NCBI GenBank assembly: GCA_048882505.1
Contig: JBHLRO010000004.1
Span: 20,193-52,192, forward strand
Length of the DNA stretch: 32,000 bases
Origin: Candidatus Thorarchaeota archaeon
GTDB lineage: Archaea > Asgardarchaeota > Heimdallarchaeia > Hodarchaeales > Hodarchaeaceae
Reading direction: 5' to 3'
The translations under genes and the position numbers were made by a program. Below are positions 13,016-17,422 of the stretch, piece after piece; the stretch's first letter is position 1, and each line of letters opens with the position of its first letter. The notes under the pieces were generated by a model. That model saw only the letters and a list, made by a program, of their open reading frames with translations. It searched no databases and was not told the DNA's origin.

Positions 13016-13945
13016 TCAACCTTCTGTAATCGACTTTAATTGCGAGGAAAACGCCAATACTTTATTGTATAGGGATGCAATAGGTTCGTTTTTCTCTTTC
13101 AAGCGGTCTTTTGGAAATCCAAAAAACAAGGCCAAGGAATTCTCCAAAAATCGAATAACGAAAACATGTCGATCTGCTTCTAATAGGATAGAATTGGAAC
13201 TTTGGGTATCAGAATTGGATAGACGCTGGGCTACCGCATCGAAAAATTGTTTTACCTCCGAAAGGGATATGTGATCAAACCGAGACACATTTTCTACCTG
13301 TGTCAAGGGTGCTCCTTCTTTGGTAAATATCTGGGCCATGTCTGCATCGTTGTGATGAATAAAAGTTTCCAACAATGGTCTTAACGTTTTACGGGCGCCT
13401 GAAGCCTCTGAATAAACATCACCCATTGCACGAAAGATCGTGTCTGAAAAAACAGAGGTTTCGTAATAACGTACTGATTGCTTTACCCCTGCGGAAAGAT
13501 AATCAGATATTGTTCTCCGAACCTCCCCTTTCAGATGTTTTGGGACTAGATCTGCCTTATGTTGGAAAAGAAAAACGGTTGCAGAGGGGCTATATTCACC
13601 AAGTTTCTTGATCGACAAATCCAAATAGTATTTGGCTCTGGAAATATCAGGAATTTTGATGGAATCAACCACGAATACAAGGGCTTTAACTCCGCTAAAG
13701 ATGAATTCGGATAGCTCACCTGTGAAGCGATCCAGAAACGCAGTTTGGCCCCCTAAATCAAAGATTGTAAGTTCTGTACCGGCAATAGTCTTTTGCTTTC
13801 TTTCATAATCTATGGTCGCGTGATAAGGTTCCTCTTTGGACGGGATTTTACCCTCTGTCACAACGCGAATTATGGTAGATTTGCCGCTTTCTGCCAACCC
13901 CAAGATAAGTACTTTTGAAGATTTTTTCCTTGTAAGATATGACAT
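13016..13945 (-). CDS. Rag/Gtr1-like small GTPase with C-terminal roadblock/longin-like domain
   Basis: G1 GLAESGKST, G2 YHATIDY, G3 DLGGQ, G4 HKADL (Rag-type His), G5 ETSV, plus a ~120-aa C-terminal alpha/beta domain. Confidence 0.85.
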   Translation of the reverse strand: MSYLTRKKSSKVLILGLAESGKSTIIRVVTEGKIPSKEEPYHATIDYERKQKTIAGTELTIFDLGGQTAFLDRFTGELSEFIFSGVKALVFVVDSIKIPDISRAKYYLDLSIKKLGEYSPSATVFLFQHKADLVPKHLKGEVRRTISDYLSAGVKQSVRYYETSVFSDTIFRAMGDVYSEASGARKTLRPLLETFIHHNDADMAQIFTKEGAPLTQVENVSRFDHISLSEVKQFFDAVAQRLSNSDTQSSNSILLEADRHVFVIRFLENSLALFFGFPKDRLKEKNEPIASLYNKVLAFSSQLKSITEG

Positions 13946-13979: not shown

Positions 13980-14780
13980 CTAGACCGTCTCTAAGATTAC
14001 CCCAAGCTTTTCTAGGATCATCTCGCGCTCCAAAGGATCTTGAACATCTCTGATCTCCATTGCGTTTTTGAACCGAGACGAGTTTAAGTTTGATGCATGT
14101 TTACTTGCTAGAAAGAATTGTCGTTGAGAGACATCTTCTGTCATCTTCAACAAAATAATACGCTTAATAACGAGGTTACAAATAATCAAGATAGGATATT
14201 GGGTCAAACTCCCGTTAATGGGTAGTTCTAATAGTTCTCCCTGATTGTTTACATGGAAAAACTCGAGTCCCCCCTTACTTGGAAGATACACGGGTTCTTT
14301 TTCAGGAGAAACAGGTTCGATAATCTCTGTACTCTGAGACACATCCTGAATGCGGCTTAAAACACGTTTCATAATCGTAGGATTTGATAAAACATTTTCT
14401 TCACGGATTCCTACAGCCTCTGTTTTCAGAGTGGCTTCAATTGCACTATGTCGCTGAAAAATTTCGTCCCGCATTTTTGAATCAAATAACAACCAGATAG
14501 TGGATTCTCTTCCGTGTTGATCGATCCGAATATCCTTTGTATCCGTTGGGATGACAGTAAAGGACATGGCAAGAGCTTCTAAGGTCGGAGTGTCCGGGAC
14601 GGGGATCGAACCATGAAGACGATAGTGTTGTTTCTCCGCTACTGTTCCTGCTCCCATGGAAAGGATCGTCATGCCTATTACGGATAACTTTACCGTTGTG
14701 TCTTCTGGCAGCTCAGATAAGTTCAAAAGAGGAAATGGCCCCATGTCTGTCATCGTTGTAACCACAAGTCCATTAATCAT
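13980..14780 (-). CDS. Hypothetical protein: putative longin/uDENN-like N-domain plus gelsolin-like C-domain
   Basis: Intact 266-aa ORF with operon-like spacing (18 and 34 nt). N-terminus VVTTMTDMGP; C-terminus FHVNNQGELLEL...RQFFLASKHASNL. Domain calls are by eye only. Confidence 0.6.
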   Translation of the reverse strand: MINGLVVTTMTDMGPFPLLNLSELPEDTTVKLSVIGMTILSMGAGTVAEKQHYRLHGSIPVPDTPTLEALAMSFTVIPTDTKDIRIDQHGRESTIWLLFDSKMRDEIFQRHSAIEATLKTEAVGIREENVLSNPTIMKRVLSRIQDVSQSTEIIEPVSPEKEPVYLPSKGGLEFFHVNNQGELLELPINGSLTQYPILIICNLVIKRIILLKMTEDVSQRQFFLASKHASNLNSSRFKNAMEIRDVQDPLEREMILEKLGVILETV

Positions 14781-14798: not shown

Positions 14799-15722
14799 TC
14801 ATTGAAGCGCTTCTACGAATTCCATGCATACCTTTTCTGCTTCTGGATAGGACATTGTACCTAATTTAAATCGAGACAGTTTGCCAATAAGCACCAGAAT
14901 TCGGTCGGGTGGAAGTATGATCGAAATATTTAAGAAATCTTCCATTCGTTGGATGTTAATCTTGAGCTCTGGAGGAAATTCAAAAACTTCATTGGCCGCA
15001 AGGAAACGAACTATTTGAGGGCCTACATTTTCTTCCCAGGAAGGTGTTTTTCCTGCTGCCGCCAAGAGTTTGTAATTGTTACGTGACAATATGTAGGCAC
15101 CAGAAAAACCAAGGCCTTTCATTTTCTCGTTAATTATCTTACGGAACTTGATCTCGTCAACTTTAGTTTTATCTTCGATGCCAATAGATCCTTTCCTTTC
15201 ATTGGTTTTTCTGATGATCTGGGTAAAAACAAGATTCGTTATTCGCTGTTCATCAGCGCCCTTCAAACTAACGATGTACGTTGAGATTTCTTTCGGATAA
15301 ATATCGTGTAGCTGATTTAGAAGGGTATCTTTTATCTTCTGCCTTTCCGCTTCATTTGTGATCAGGTGGCCTCGGTTTAAGATTAGCAGTACTTGAAGAT
15401 CATGGTTTTCCTTGTCTGTGAAATTCTTTATTATCCCTTGAAAATCCGCCGCTGTGTCATCCAGTCTCTGATAGGTTATGTCATGAATGTAAATTAGTGC
15501 ACCTGTTTTCATTAAGACTTTGTGCTCTAATGTCGGAAGGATGGCGGTAACATATGAGTCTTCACCCCTTTTTCTAGCAGAAGTTGTTATTAAATCATAG
15601 TAGTAAACATTCTCTCTTATTCCAAGATCGGGTTCAGTTTTTCCTAATTTCATCAATTGGTTAAAAAGCAGATCCTTTCCTGAGTGAGATAAGCCAGCGA
15701 CCGCAATTAAATTCCTTTTCAA
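14799..15722 (-). CDS. Degenerate Rag-like GTPase (pseudo-GTPase) with C-terminal roadblock-like domain
   Basis: G1 GLSHSGKD, no DxxG, G4 position NRGH, and a retained ALIYIHDIT strand. The C-terminal FSGAYILSRNNYKLLAAAG is roadblock-like. TTG start. Confidence 0.7.
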   Translation of the reverse strand: MKRNLIAVAGLSHSGKDLLFNQLMKLGKTEPDLGIRENVYYYDLITTSARKRGEDSYVTAILPTLEHKVLMKTGALIYIHDITYQRLDDTAADFQGIIKNFTDKENHDLQVLLILNRGHLITNEAERQKIKDTLLNQLHDIYPKEISTYIVSLKGADEQRITNLVFTQIIRKTNERKGSIGIEDKTKVDEIKFRKIINEKMKGLGFSGAYILSRNNYKLLAAAGKTPSWEENVGPQIVRFLAANEVFEFPPELKINIQRMEDFLNISIILPPDRILVLIGKLSRFKLGTMSYPEAEKVCMEFVEALQ

Positions 15723-15843: not shown

Positions 15844-16857
15844 TTACGCTACAGGTTGGAGCATACCTTCCAATTGATTAGATACCAGCTTGACAGTTTC
15901 TTCAATATCCACCAAAGATCTAGTTTCGAGCATTGATTTTTGGTCAGTACCAAGAAGGAGTAGTAAATAATGAGGTTTCACTTTAAACTTGAATACCATG
16001 GCGTTTCCAACCCGTTTCAGCTCCGTATTCGAGCCAGCTTTTAGATTTTTTTCATTGGCTTTTTCCATAATCTCTAGGAGTCGACGAATTTCTTCTAGTT
16101 GGGCATCCGATCCTTGAACAAGAAACTCTGGATCTTCCGAGGAGATTAAGAGTACTTCGTCCAAACGATTCATGAACTTAACCGTATGTAACACTTGTTG
16201 GATAGGACGTAGTCTTAGGCGGCGTTGTATCGCTTCTAAATCTGCTTCTTCTTCAATCTCCTCTGCTTCTGGAATGATTTCGCTAGCTTCCGCAGTGATT
16301 CGTTTAAATGCTTCATGAATTGAGTTATCGTAAATTGAGGTCTGAAGAAACGTAATATTCTTCGTAGCCACAGCATCTTGAAACATTTCCATCAAGAACT
16401 CCATTCTTTCGGCCCTTTGAGTTAGGTCGGGAAGTAAATCCGTCTTGTGGAGTAAAATATATACTGCAGGCTGTACATCTGACATTTCTTCTAATCTGGA
16501 TACGCCTTCAACAAAGGCCTTTAGGCTTGCGGGAAATTTCTCTGGCGTACTGATGTCACAGATAAAAACTAATACAGCAACGTTACTGAATATGAAAGAG
16601 CTCATGCTACTCAAAAACCGCTTTAAAAAAACCTCCTGGCCTCCCAGATCCATCACCGTAACAGGTTCATCGGCCACTTGCTCGATCTGTCGCTCGTAAT
16701 TAAGTGTAGCTGAGTAGTTCTGTGTTTCCTCTGGGGTTTTCCCCCCAAATACAACATCACGGATTGATGTTTTACCTGCTTGTGAAAGCCCCAAAAGAAT
16801 AATCTTTCGACTTGCGCTAGTTTTCAATTGTTTTAAATAATGTGACACGCTTATCAC
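15844..16857 (-). CDS. Rag/Gtr1-like small GTPase with acidic linker and C-terminal roadblock/longin-like domain
   Basis: G1 GLSQAGKTS, G2 YSATLNY, G3 DLGGQ, G4 HKTDL, G5 QTSIYD. An alternative GTG start at 16848 follows an SD-like GGGTGA. Confidence 0.87.
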   Translation of the reverse strand: MISVSHYLKQLKTSASRKIILLGLSQAGKTSIRDVVFGGKTPEETQNYSATLNYERQIEQVADEPVTVMDLGGQEVFLKRFLSSMSSFIFSNVAVLVFICDISTPEKFPASLKAFVEGVSRLEEMSDVQPAVYILLHKTDLLPDLTQRAERMEFLMEMFQDAVATKNITFLQTSIYDNSIHEAFKRITAEASEIIPEAEEIEEEADLEAIQRRLRLRPIQQVLHTVKFMNRLDEVLLISSEDPEFLVQGSDAQLEEIRRLLEIMEKANEKNLKAGSNTELKRVGNAMVFKFKVKPHYLLLLLGTDQKSMLETRSLVDIEETVKLVSNQLEGMLQPVA

Positions 16858-17083: not shown

Positions 17084-17422
17084 GTGCAATTCAACCGTGA
17101 AGGCATTTTATGCGAGAATAGCTGTCGATTCTTTCGATGTTCAGAAAGGTTTATGAAAATTACCTGGAGAAACAATCAAAAGATAATTCTATGCAAAATG
17201 GTGGAGGGGGATGAATGCATCGGATATAAATGTAAATTTGCAGTATGTGGATTTCGGCCGCCTGCCCTTGAGATCGATACTGGAGCATGCTTGGAAAAGA
17301 AAAAAAACCGGGCACCCAAACGAATTCCACCAAAACACGTAAGTGACGACGATCCCTTACGCTATCGTAATCTACTTGACAAAAAATTGCAGAAGGGATT
17401 TAAAATTAAAGATTATTACTGA
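17084..17422 (+). CDS. Small Cys-rich (8 Cys) basic hypothetical protein, probably metal-binding
   Basis: CENSCRFFRC...CKMVEGDECIGYKCKFAVC...GAC with a Lys/Arg-rich tail. Divergent from the GTPase cluster. Confidence 0.7.
   Translation: MQFNREGILCENSCRFFRCSERFMKITWRNNQKIILCKMVEGDECIGYKCKFAVCGFRPPALEIDTGACLEKKKNRAPKRIPPKHVSDDDPLRYRNLLDKKLQKGFKIKDYY

What the first reader, a model, noticed from the sequence alone, without database searches (positions are those of the whole stretch)
13980..14780. Putative longin/uDENN plus gelsolin-like fusion inside the GTPase cluster
Seen: the N-domain starts with a hydrophobic strand then TDMGP, comparable to the strand-x-GP start of NPRL2/FLCN/C9orf72-type longin domains. 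A Pro/Glu linker follows. The ~95-aa C-domain (13980-14273: LEFFHVNNQGELLEL...ILIIC...RIILL...VSQRQFFLASKHASNL...EIRDVQD) follows the strand/helix order of single gelsolin domains but lacks the usual WxG. Known: Asgard gelsolin-domain proteins regulate actin. Inference: an adaptor linking Rag-like GTPases to the actin cytoskeleton. Both domain calls are by eye.
Basis: inference. Interest (0 to 1): 0.75.

Follow-up and report, generated by a model that had tools for sequence, protein, structure and literature searches.

The report
Longin-gelsolin protein in Rag GTPase operon
An Asgard (Hodarchaeales) archaeon encodes, between Rag-type GTPase genes, a protein that joins a folliculin/NPRL2-style longin domain to a stripped-down gelsolin domain, which suggests that the Rag-regulator pairing of eukaryotic nutrient signalling predates eukaryotes and may have been tied to actin.

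Summary
ORF 13980-14780 (-) encodes a real, conserved 266-aa protein with no Pfam hit.

**Fold.** Both domain calls made by eye are confirmed by structure prediction.
- Residues 1-152 are a longin domain. The best matches are a Loki longin (Z 12.9), then SMCR8/C9orf72, Lst4 and FLCN (Z about 11).
- Residues 170-266 are a gelsolin domain. The best match is Thor ProGel (Z 11.8, 87 of 88 residues).

**Motifs.** The longin carries the GP motif that marks GAP-type longins. It also has an invariant D-x-R-I-x3-G-R loop. The gelsolin domain lacks WxG and the Ca2+ ligands.

**Context.**
- The order Rag, pseudo-Rag, this gene, Rag is kept wherever the flank allows in 20 Hodarchaeales genomes.
- Relatives at 38-41% identity still sit beside a Rag gene.
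- Natural fusions to the downstream Rag type exist.
- A paralogous GP-longin lies next to a canonical two-domain gelsolin in about 18 genomes.

**Reading.** The best reading is a Rag regulator, probably a GAP, with a gelsolin module of unproven role. Actin binding was not tested.

**Novelty.** The architecture and the operon link were not found in the held literature. First readers of this scan noted the same architecture in two other genomes.

The parts
13980..14780 (-). LonGel gene: 266-aa longin-gelsolin protein (P0001), stop codon included
   Evidence: ORF. 69 homologues. AF2 model, mean pLDDT 80.
14325..14780 (-). N-terminal longin domain, residues 1-152, order beta-beta-alpha-beta-beta-beta-alpha-alpha
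   Evidence: Secondary structure. VIA Z 12.9 to 8yqg, 11.3 to 7o2w_A, 11.2 to Lst4, 11.0 to FLCN chain 6nzd_H. Atlas shape matches to NPR2, C9orf72 and NPRL3.
14736..14741 (-). GP motif (G14-P15) in the loop before strand 2
   Evidence: Translation. At least 90% conserved in 58 diverse relatives. Described as the mark of GAP-type longins in PMC12290439.
14508..14534 (-). D83-I-R85-I-D-Q-H-G90-R91 loop between strands 4 and 5; candidate arginine finger
   Evidence: Translation. D83 and R85 are invariant, G90 and R91 at least 90% conserved, in 58 sequences. hhalign places this loop over the D-P-x-x-R-G loop of PF11704-positive Asgard longins.
14274..14324 (-). Pro/Glu-rich flexible linker, residues 153-169
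   Evidence: pLDDT below 50 at residues 155-167. Variable in length and sequence among homologues.
13983..14273 (-). C-terminal gelsolin-fold domain, residues 170-266, without WxG or Ca2+ ligands
   Evidence: VIA Z 11.8 to Thor ProGel 7c2f (87 of 88 residues, rmsd 2.3, 20% identity); Z 9.4-10.4 to adseverin, gelsolin, villin, fragmin and 2DGel. Profile versus PDB: the best hit is 7c2f_B, E 0.012. HMM hits an own-genome PF00626 gelsolin, E 3.4e-4. Alignment.
13016..13945 (-). RagD: Rag/Gtr1-type GTPase 34 nt downstream; the likely client
   Evidence: Pfam Gtr1_RagA 3.6e-31. Intact GxxxxGKS, DLGGQ and HKAD motifs. Downstream Rag genes of remote relatives and the Rag part of fusions P0075 and P0106 match this paralogue best.
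14799..15722 (-). Pseudo-Rag: degenerate Rag-like protein 18 nt upstream
   Evidence: Weak Gtr1_RagA (5e-4) and SRPRB hits. P-loop GKD, no DxxGQ, NRGH in place of HKxD. Conserved at 42-50% identity in the other species' loci, 93% in the near-identical L006.
15844..16857 (-). RagU: second Rag/Gtr1-type GTPase, first gene of the cluster
   Evidence: Pfam Gtr1_RagA 1.2e-34. 35% identical to RagD with intact G motifs. Conserved wherever the locus reaches far enough upstream.

Best explanation
The gene encodes a two-domain regulator of Rag-family GTPases, called LonGel here.

Longin domain. It belongs to the same structural class as the catalytic longins of FLCN, NPRL2 and SMCR8, and carries the GP motif. 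It most likely docks on the Rag-type GTPase encoded immediately downstream (RagD), and perhaps on its paralogue RagU. It probably stimulates GTP hydrolysis with an arginine from the invariant D83-x-R85-I-x3-G90-R91 loop next to the GP motif.

Gelsolin domain. It is Ca2+-independent and ProGel-like, joined by a flexible linker. It is an accessory module. It may tether the Rag module to actin filaments or monomers, or it may pack on the GTPase.

What is shown: the two folds, the motifs, the conserved operon, and the natural fusions.

What is inferred: physical binding to RagD, GAP activity, which arginine is catalytic, and any actin contact.
For: Folds:
- AF2 model, mean pLDDT 80.
- In an unbiased VIA search the N-domain scores Z 12.9 to 8yqg, 11.3 to 7o2w_A (C9orf72-SMCR8 complex), 11.2 to Lst4, 11.0 to FLCN and 9.2-9.6 to NPRL/FNIP. 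SNARE, adaptor, TRAPP, Mon1-Ccz1 and DENND longins score 7.4-8.5.
- The C-domain scores Z 11.8 to ProGel and 9.4-10.4 to other gelsolins.
- The Atlas shape search returns NPR2, C9orf72 and NPRL3, plus an Asgard cluster in which 23% of members hit Pfam Folliculin.

Motifs:
- GP is at least 90% conserved. D83 and R85 are invariant across 58 diverse relatives.
- PMC12290439 defines GP plus an Arg finger as the hallmark of GAP longins and of some Asgard longins.
- hhalign against PF11704-positive longins of the same genome gives 88.6% (local) to 95.5% (global) probability, with GP and the Arg loop in register.

Link to Rag:
- All 20 Hodarchaeales species loci carry the pseudoRag-LonGel-RagD core. 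RagU is present in every locus that reaches far enough upstream (19 of 20). Gaps here are 18 and 34 nt.
- Relatives at 38-41% identity sit next to a Gtr1_RagA gene in 3 of 4 long contigs.
- P0075 is a single ORF of LonGel plus Rag.
- P0106, seen in two assemblies, joins the gelsolin-like domain to the Rag domain by about 8 residues.
- The Rag parts of the fusions and the downstream neighbours match RagD best.
- A paralogue in the same genome is flanked by two Rag genes.
Against: - There are no biochemical data.
- No Pfam family hits the protein, and PF11704 does not reach it.
- In the hhalign alignment the FLCN-type finger column falls two residues after R85, so exact equivalence of the arginine is not established.
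- There is no DENN domain and no second longin gene in the operon, unlike the eukaryotic heterodimeric GAPs.
- AF2 on the natural fusion gave confident domains but pTM 0.49 with disordered linkers, so no fixed longin-to-G-domain packing was predicted.
- Longin and roadblock platforms are more often GEFs or scaffolds than GAPs.
Confidence: 0.55

Rival explanations
1. LonGel is a non-catalytic adaptor. The longin end holds a Rag-like GTPase and the gelsolin end binds actin, so that Rag state positions or remodels the actin cytoskeleton.
For: - The C-domain is homologous to ProGel, which binds actin at the G1/cofilin site and bundles filaments.
- It is structurally closer to actin-binding gelsolins (Z 9.4-11.8) than to the Sec23 gelsolin-like domain (Z 8.5).
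- In the same genome a paralogous GP-longin gene lies directly upstream of a canonical two-domain gelsolin (PF00626, 8.9e-23). That pair is kept in about 18 genomes.
- The genome has a bona fide actin, about 60% identical to eukaryotic actins.
Against: - WxG, the GD/DE Ca2+ ligands and the G-x-E-P-x-x-F motif of the genome's own gelsolins are all replaced.
- PF00626 does not reach the domain.
- The invariant Arg loop plus GP motif argues for catalysis rather than mere adaptation.
- In P0106 the gelsolin-like domain stays attached to the Rag domain by about 8 residues while the GP-longin is replaced by another longin-like domain. This suggests the C-domain itself is a Rag-associated module.
Confidence: 0.3
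2. The gelsolin-fold domain has nothing to do with actin. It is a GTPase-contacting or self-association module, as in Sec23/24, where a gelsolin-like domain is part of a GAP for the Arf-family GTPase Sar1. LonGel would then be purely a Rag regulator.
For: - Sec23a's gelsolin-like domain is matched at Z 8.5 over 96 residues. [quoted passage not shown]
- Short linkers tie the domain to the Rag G-domain in natural fusions.
- The hallmark gelsolin sequence motifs are lost.
- The role of the Sec23 gelsolin-like domain in Sar1 contact rests on my own recollection of Bi et al. 2002 and was not checked here.
Against: - Matches to actin-binding gelsolins are clearly better than the match to Sec23.
- The recurrent pairing of this longin class with a canonical gelsolin points to actin.
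- No arginine in the C-domain is invariant across remote relatives.
- AF2 did not pack the domain on the G-domain in the fusion.
Confidence: 0.3
3. The longin domain is a GEF or scaffold platform, like Ragulator, Mon1-Ccz1, TRAPP or MglB-type roadblock/longin dimers, rather than a GAP.
For: - Most longin and roadblock platforms act as GEFs or scaffolds (PMC10933270).
- The closest solved match, 8yqg, is a dimeric Asgard longin of unknown activity.
- Mon1-Ccz1 and TRAPP longins are also matched, at Z 7.4-8.2.
Against: - The GP motif is reported as absent from non-GAP longins (PMC12290439).
- GAP-type longins score 2.5-3 Z units higher than GEF-type longins.
- An invariant arginine lies in the loop where FLCN-like longins carry theirs.
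Confidence: 0.2

Closest known systems
Catalytic longin subunits of eukaryotic longin GAP complexes: FLCN (with FNIP), NPRL2 (GATOR1), SMCR8 (with C9orf72)
   Same: - Longin fold, Z 9.6-11.3.
- GP motif before strand 2 and a conserved arginine in the strand 4-5 loop (PMC12290439).
- A Rag-family GTPase as the genomically linked partner.
   Different: - There is no DENN domain; a gelsolin-fold domain follows the longin instead.
- No second longin partner gene lies in the operon.
- No Pfam Folliculin or NPR2 hit.
- The arginine loop is D-x-R-I-x3-G-R rather than D-x-x-A-R-G.
- Activity is untested.
GP-motif Asgard longins noted by the 2025 Traffic paper (PMC12290439) and the solved Loki Roadblock-Longin domain 8yqg
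   Same: The same class of Asgard longin, with GP motif and arginine. 8yqg is the best structural match (Z 12.9) and shows GP in the HMM alignment.
   Different: - That paper does not mention a gelsolin domain or Rag gene neighbourhoods. It leaves open whether ArfR or Rag GTPases are the partners.
- 8yqg has a roadblock domain N-terminal to the longin, not a gelsolin domain C-terminal to it.
Asgard mini-gelsolins: ProGel, 1DGelX, 2DGel (Akil et al. 2020, PMC7444086)
   Same: - A single gelsolin/cofilin core domain.
- Closest to ProGel: Z 11.8, 20% identity, top PDB sequence hit at E 0.012.
- No Ca2+ sites, as in ProGel.
   Different: - The domain is C-terminal to a longin domain. This architecture is not among the three described.
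- WxG and G-x-E-P-x-x-F are lost.
- The gene lies in a GTPase operon.
- Actin binding is unknown.
Sec23/Sec24 gelsolin-like domain in the COPII GAP for Sar1
   Same: A gelsolin-fold domain within a regulator of an Arf/Rag-superfamily GTPase. Matched at Z 8.5.
   Different: The match is weaker than to actin-binding gelsolins. The Sec23 architecture (zinc finger, trunk, barrel, helical domain) is absent, and there is no longin domain in Sec23.

Membership tests
Longin domain fold | beta-beta-alpha-beta-beta-beta-alpha(-alpha) order with a five-stranded sheet | tested here: met
   AF2 element order E4-11, E14-20, H26-42, E55-61, E64-77, E91-100, H101-123, H134-149. Z 12.9 to 8yqg, with many longins at Z 7-11.
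GAP-type longins (FLCN / NPRL2 / SMCR8 / C9orf72) | GP motif at the end of the loop before strand 2 (PMC12290439) | tested here: met
   G14-P15 in TDMGP. At least 90% conserved in 58 relatives. Aligned with GP of PF11704-positive Asgard longins.
GAP-type longins (FLCN / NPRL2 / SMCR8 / C9orf72) | Catalytic arginine finger beside the GP motif | tested here: inconclusive
   R85 is invariant and R91 at least 90% conserved in the strand 4-5 loop. hhalign puts the FLCN-type R two columns after R85 and a second R on R91. No residue-level superposition was possible.
GAP-type longins (FLCN / NPRL2 / SMCR8 / C9orf72) | Sequence membership in Pfam Folliculin (PF11704), NPR2 (PF06218) or C9orf72-like (PF15019) | tested here: not met
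   No Pfam hit for P0001 or for 24 relatives, even at E 10. The PF11704 genome scan hits four other proteins, not this one. Only remote profile similarity was found.
GAP-type longins (FLCN / NPRL2 / SMCR8 / C9orf72) | Longin followed by a DENN domain, and heterodimer with a second longin-DENN subunit | tested here: not met
   The C-terminal domain is gelsolin-fold, not DENN. No second longin gene lies in the four-gene cluster. Oligomeric state was not tested.
GAP-type longins (FLCN / NPRL2 / SMCR8 / C9orf72) | GAP activity on a Rag or Arf GTPase | not testable with these tools
   Only genomic linkage to RagD-type genes and natural fusions.
Gelsolin/cofilin core domain | Mixed sheet packed against a long helix and a short C-terminal helix | tested here: met
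   Element order E172-177, E183-186, E197-202, E207-212, H219-236, E242-246, H249-265. Z 11.8 to 7c2f (87 of 88 residues, rmsd 2.3). All the other C-domain matches listed are gelsolin-family or Sec23.
Gelsolin repeat (Pfam PF00626) | Hit to the family HMM above its cut-off | tested here: not met
   No hit. Indirect links only: the C-domain profile hits ProGel at E 0.012 and an own-genome PF00626 protein at E 3.4e-4, in register.
Gelsolin repeat (Pfam PF00626) | Type I and type II Ca2+-binding residues and the WxG turn | tested here: not met
   In the alignment with the genome's own gelsolins, GD, the acidic pair at the helix start and WxG are replaced. ProGel also lacks Ca2+ sites.
Gelsolin repeat (Pfam PF00626) | Binds actin | not testable with these tools
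   The complex-prediction job with the genome's actin was not folded by the tool.
Asgard gelsolin architectures ProGel / 1DGelX / 2DGel | Gelsolin domain alone, N-terminal to domain X, or duplicated | tested here: not met
   Here the single gelsolin domain is C-terminal to a longin domain. The three published architectures are listed in PMC7444086.

The most novel reading that the evidence does not exclude
Before eukaryotes arose, Asgard archaea already ran a Rag GTPase switch with a folliculin/NPRL2-type longin GAP, and that GAP was physically coupled to actin through a gelsolin domain. The ancestral output of Rag signalling would then have been cytoskeletal or membrane remodelling rather than TOR control. 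The DENN domain of the eukaryotic longin GAPs would be a later replacement of the gelsolin module.
Probability: 0.25. Interest if true: 0.88.

Novelty: new variant of a known kind. Interest (0 to 1): 0.72.

Why it matters
Eukaryotic nutrient sensing depends on Rag GTPases switched off by longin-domain GAPs (GATOR1, folliculin).

A 2025 survey found GP-motif longins in Asgard archaea. It could not say which GTPases they serve. An earlier structural study found that in a Loki strain the GTPases are not in operons with their regulators.

This locus gives a concrete, testable pairing. One longin protein is locked in gene order with one Rag paralogue across a whole order and is sometimes fused to it.

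It also adds a fourth architecture to the known Asgard gelsolin-domain proteins. Together with a second conserved longin-gelsolin gene pair, it raises the possibility that early Rag-type switches talked to actin.

All components are small soluble proteins, suited to direct biochemical and structural tests.

Tried and rejected
- Complex prediction of the C-domain (A3) with the genome's actin (A5). It gives no evidence either way.
- RNA evidence: no RNA holder listed among sequencing runs.
- Search for longer fused forms by word index: none found, which is weak evidence. Fusions were found instead through the exhaustive representative search.
- PDB sequence searches with whole-protein, N-domain and wide N-domain profiles gave no FLCN, NPRL2 or SMCR8 hit.
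- Pfam on the protein and on 24 relatives: nothing meaningful.
- PF11704 genome scan: hits other proteins only.
- ESM Atlas feature search: only the protein's own cluster.
- AF2 of the natural LonGel-Rag fusion P0075: domains confident, but pTM 0.49 and disordered linkers, so no inter-domain arrangement could be read.
- The search for related loci with the diverse alignment A2 failed for lack of a conserved stretch. A1 was used instead.
- Three remote homologues lie on contigs too short to show neighbours.
- I could not obtain residue-level structural superposition or model coordinates, so the choice between R85 and R91 stays open.
- Two papers on Arg fingers, PMC10050129 and PMC6393612, were not held.
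- A literature search for the Sec23 arginine finger in the gelsolin-like domain found nothing, so that point rests on memory only.

Full report
**The gene.** ORF 13980-14780 (minus strand) encodes 266 aa.
- It has no Pfam hit even at E 1.
- It has 69 near-length homologues at 49-89% identity, all annotated as hypothetical proteins of Heimdall/Hodarchaeales MAGs.
- An exhaustive search adds remote relatives down to about 25% identity.
- The start codon agrees with the homologues' N-termini.
- Among close orthologues the N-terminal half is much more conserved (about 59-75% identity) than the C-terminal half (about 45-55%).

**Fold.** AF2 with 30 homologues gives mean pLDDT 80. It shows two confident domains separated by a disordered Pro/Glu linker at residues 155-167.
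- Residues 1-152 have the longin order beta-beta-alpha-beta-beta-beta-alpha-alpha.
- Residues 170-266 run beta-beta-beta-beta-alpha-beta-alpha.

**Foldseek** already returned longins (8yqg at 3.7e-5, and GATOR1 chains from 1.3e-4) and gelsolins (ProGel, TM 0.79).

**An unbiased VIA-align search over 48,161 chains** gave the following (the same picture appears).

| Domain | Match | Z |
|---|---|---|
| N | Loki Roadblock-Longin 8yqg (139 aligned) | 12.9 |
| N | 7o2w_A (C9orf72-SMCR8 complex) | 11.3 |
| N | Lst4 | 11.2 |
| N | FLCN | 11.0 |
| N | GATOR1/SEA and FNIP2 chains | 9.2-9.6 |
| N | VAMP7, adaptor sigma/mu, Mon1-Ccz1, sedlin, COPI zeta, DENND and roadblock proteins | 7.4-8.5 |
| C | Thor ProGel (87 of 88 residues, rmsd 2.3, 20% identity) | 11.8 |
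| C | adseverin, gelsolin, villin, fragmin, Asgard 2DGel | 9.4-10.4 |
| C | Sec23a gelsolin-like domain | 8.5 |

A shape search of the ESM Atlas gave eukaryotic NPR2, C9orf72 and NPRL3. It also gave archaeal longin-GTPase fusions and a Heimdall cluster in which 23% of members hit Pfam Folliculin.

**Longin motifs.** In 58 diverse relatives that share only 14% mean column identity:
- D83 and R85 are invariant.
- G4, D12, G14, P15, G57, P60, G90 and R91 are at least 90% conserved.

The 2025 Traffic paper (PMC12290439) reports that the GP motif before strand 2 occurs in FLCN, NPRL2, SMCR8 and C9orf72 but not in non-GAP longins. It sits next to the arginine finger, and 15 Asgard longins share both features.

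The genome also holds four longins that do hit Pfam Folliculin. They carry (D/N)-P-x-(A/V)-R-G.
- hhalign of the LonGel-type profile against them gives 88.6% (local) to 95.5% (global) probability.
- GP aligns on GP, D83 on their D, and R91 on their second R.
- Their finger R falls two columns after R85.

So an invariant arginine sits in the right loop, but which of R85 or R91 is the finger is not settled.

**The gelsolin domain at sequence level.**
- The C-domain profile's best PDB hit is ProGel, end to end, at E 0.012.
- Its HMM, run on all ORFs of the genome, hits a PF00626-positive gelsolin (E 3.4e-4) and a weakly positive one (1.3e-5), both in register with the Pfam match.
- Aligned with the genome's own gelsolins, LonGel has lost WxG, the GD and acidic Ca2+ ligands, and the G-x-E-P-x-x-F motif.
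- ProGel likewise lacks Ca2+ sites. It binds G-actin only weakly (Kd about 337 uM) but bundles filaments. The published Asgard architectures are ProGel, 1DGelX and 2DGel only.

**Context.** The flanking genes are RagU (15844-16857), a degenerate pseudo-Rag (14799-15722) and RagD (13016-13945).
- The two Rags have intact G1, G3 and HKxD motifs and share 35% identity.
- All 20 species-level Hodarchaeales loci carry the core pseudoRag, LonGel, RagD. RagU is present in every locus that extends far enough upstream (19 of 20). An M50 peptidase follows further downstream where the contig reaches.
- Here the gaps around LonGel are 18 and 34 nt.
- Of four remote LonGel relatives (38-41% identity) on long contigs, three sit next to a Gtr1_RagA gene. 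Two of these have a RagD-type gene downstream on the same strand; the third has a divergent neighbour that matches another Rag paralogue best.
- P0075 is one ORF of LonGel plus a RagD-type Rag.
- P0106, present in two assemblies, has a different, non-GP longin-like N-domain. It is followed by the LonGel-type gelsolin domain and, after about 8 residues, a RagD-type Rag.
- A paralogue in the same genome is flanked by two Rag genes.

This answers, at the genomic level, the question left open in PMC12290439. It contrasts with the report that in strain MK-D1 GTPases are generally not in operons with longin or roadblock genes.

**A second longin-gelsolin link.** Another GP-longin paralogue (263 aa, with a coiled-coil tail) lies between an 863-aa membrane protein and a canonical two-domain gelsolin (PF00626, 8.9e-23). 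This trio is kept in about 18 genomes of the same GTDB genus. The genome has one bona fide actin. This is the best indirect argument that the longin-gelsolin combination has to do with actin.

**What could not be shown.**
- The complex prediction with actin was not folded by the tool.
- No RNA runs were listed.
- AF2 of the natural fusion gave confident domains but no confident packing: pTM 0.49, with linkers at 155-167 and 270-281 disordered.

**Conclusion.**
- Architecture and Rag linkage are solid.
- GAP activity through the arginine loop is the most likely mechanism, at about even odds.
- The role of the gelsolin module is open. I put actin tethering at roughly one in three. Packing on the GTPase, as in Sec23, is about equally likely.
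- In the held literature I found neither this architecture nor the operon.
- First readers of this scan noted the same architecture in two other genomes, and the four-gene cluster here.

Noticed in passing
window 14799-15722 (-): Rag-like pseudo-GTPase. The P-loop ends in GKD, the DxxGQ segment is deleted, and NRGH stands in place of HKxD, yet the 307-aa frame is conserved (42-50% identity in the other species' loci, 93% in the near-identical L006). It is absent from the remote LonGel-Rag loci, so it looks like a Hodarchaeales-specific addition.
   Followed up: partly
L033 107-5074 (G000:C33:2106-7073): Conserved same-strand trio: an 863-aa membrane protein with a roadblock-like cytoplasmic tail, a 263-aa GP-motif longin with a coiled coil, and a canonical 386-aa two-domain gelsolin. 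It is kept in about 18 genomes of the genus.
   Followed up: partly
L032 194-5004 (G000:C1:25193-30003): A second LonGel-like paralogue (304 aa from its first start codon: a 5'-shortened longin with the D-x-R-I-x3-G-R loop, a weak gelsolin-like middle, and an extra C-terminal domain). It is flanked by two Rag-type GTPase genes.
   Followed up: partly
L040 1-4434, L064 1-4102, L063 6582-9783, L066 2964-7380: In remote LonGel-Rag loci a giant protein gene (2,700 to 4,800 aa; Laminin_G_3 or DUF2341 where annotated) lies next to the pair on the opposite strand. This echoes earlier notes on a surface receptor with a folliculin-type tail beside Rag genes in this genome.
   Followed up: no
L040 5001-6647 (P0106): A natural three-part protein: a non-GP longin/roadblock-like N-domain (weak Fuz_longin_1 hit), a LonGel-type gelsolin domain, and a RagD-type GTPase with a roadblock tail. 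It shows the gelsolin-like module travelling with the Rag domain independently of the GP-longin.
   Followed up: partly
window 17084-17422 (+): A Cys-rich 112-aa ORF with no Pfam hit, divergent from the Rag cluster. It is conserved at the same position in 13 of the 20 related loci (49-84% identity).
   Followed up: no
L009 (LJUQ01000002.1): A contig titled 'Bacteroides sp. SM23_62_1' carries the complete Asgard Rag, pseudo-Rag, LonGel, Rag cluster at 68-81% identity. It is probably a mis-binned Asgard contig.
   Followed up: no
G000:C2:281497-282837, C6:54851-55747, C9:124212-127031, C10:95218-125424: Four other proteins of this genome hit Pfam Folliculin (best E 1.3e-4) and carry (D/N)-P-x-(A/V)-R-G. 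One is the C-terminal tail of a 10,069-aa ORF.
   Followed up: partly
PDB entry 9m28, seen: A solved 'monomeric Rag-like small GTPase from Asgard Lokiarchaeota (LokiRagM)' exists, released 2026-03. No paper on it was found in the held library.
   Followed up: partly
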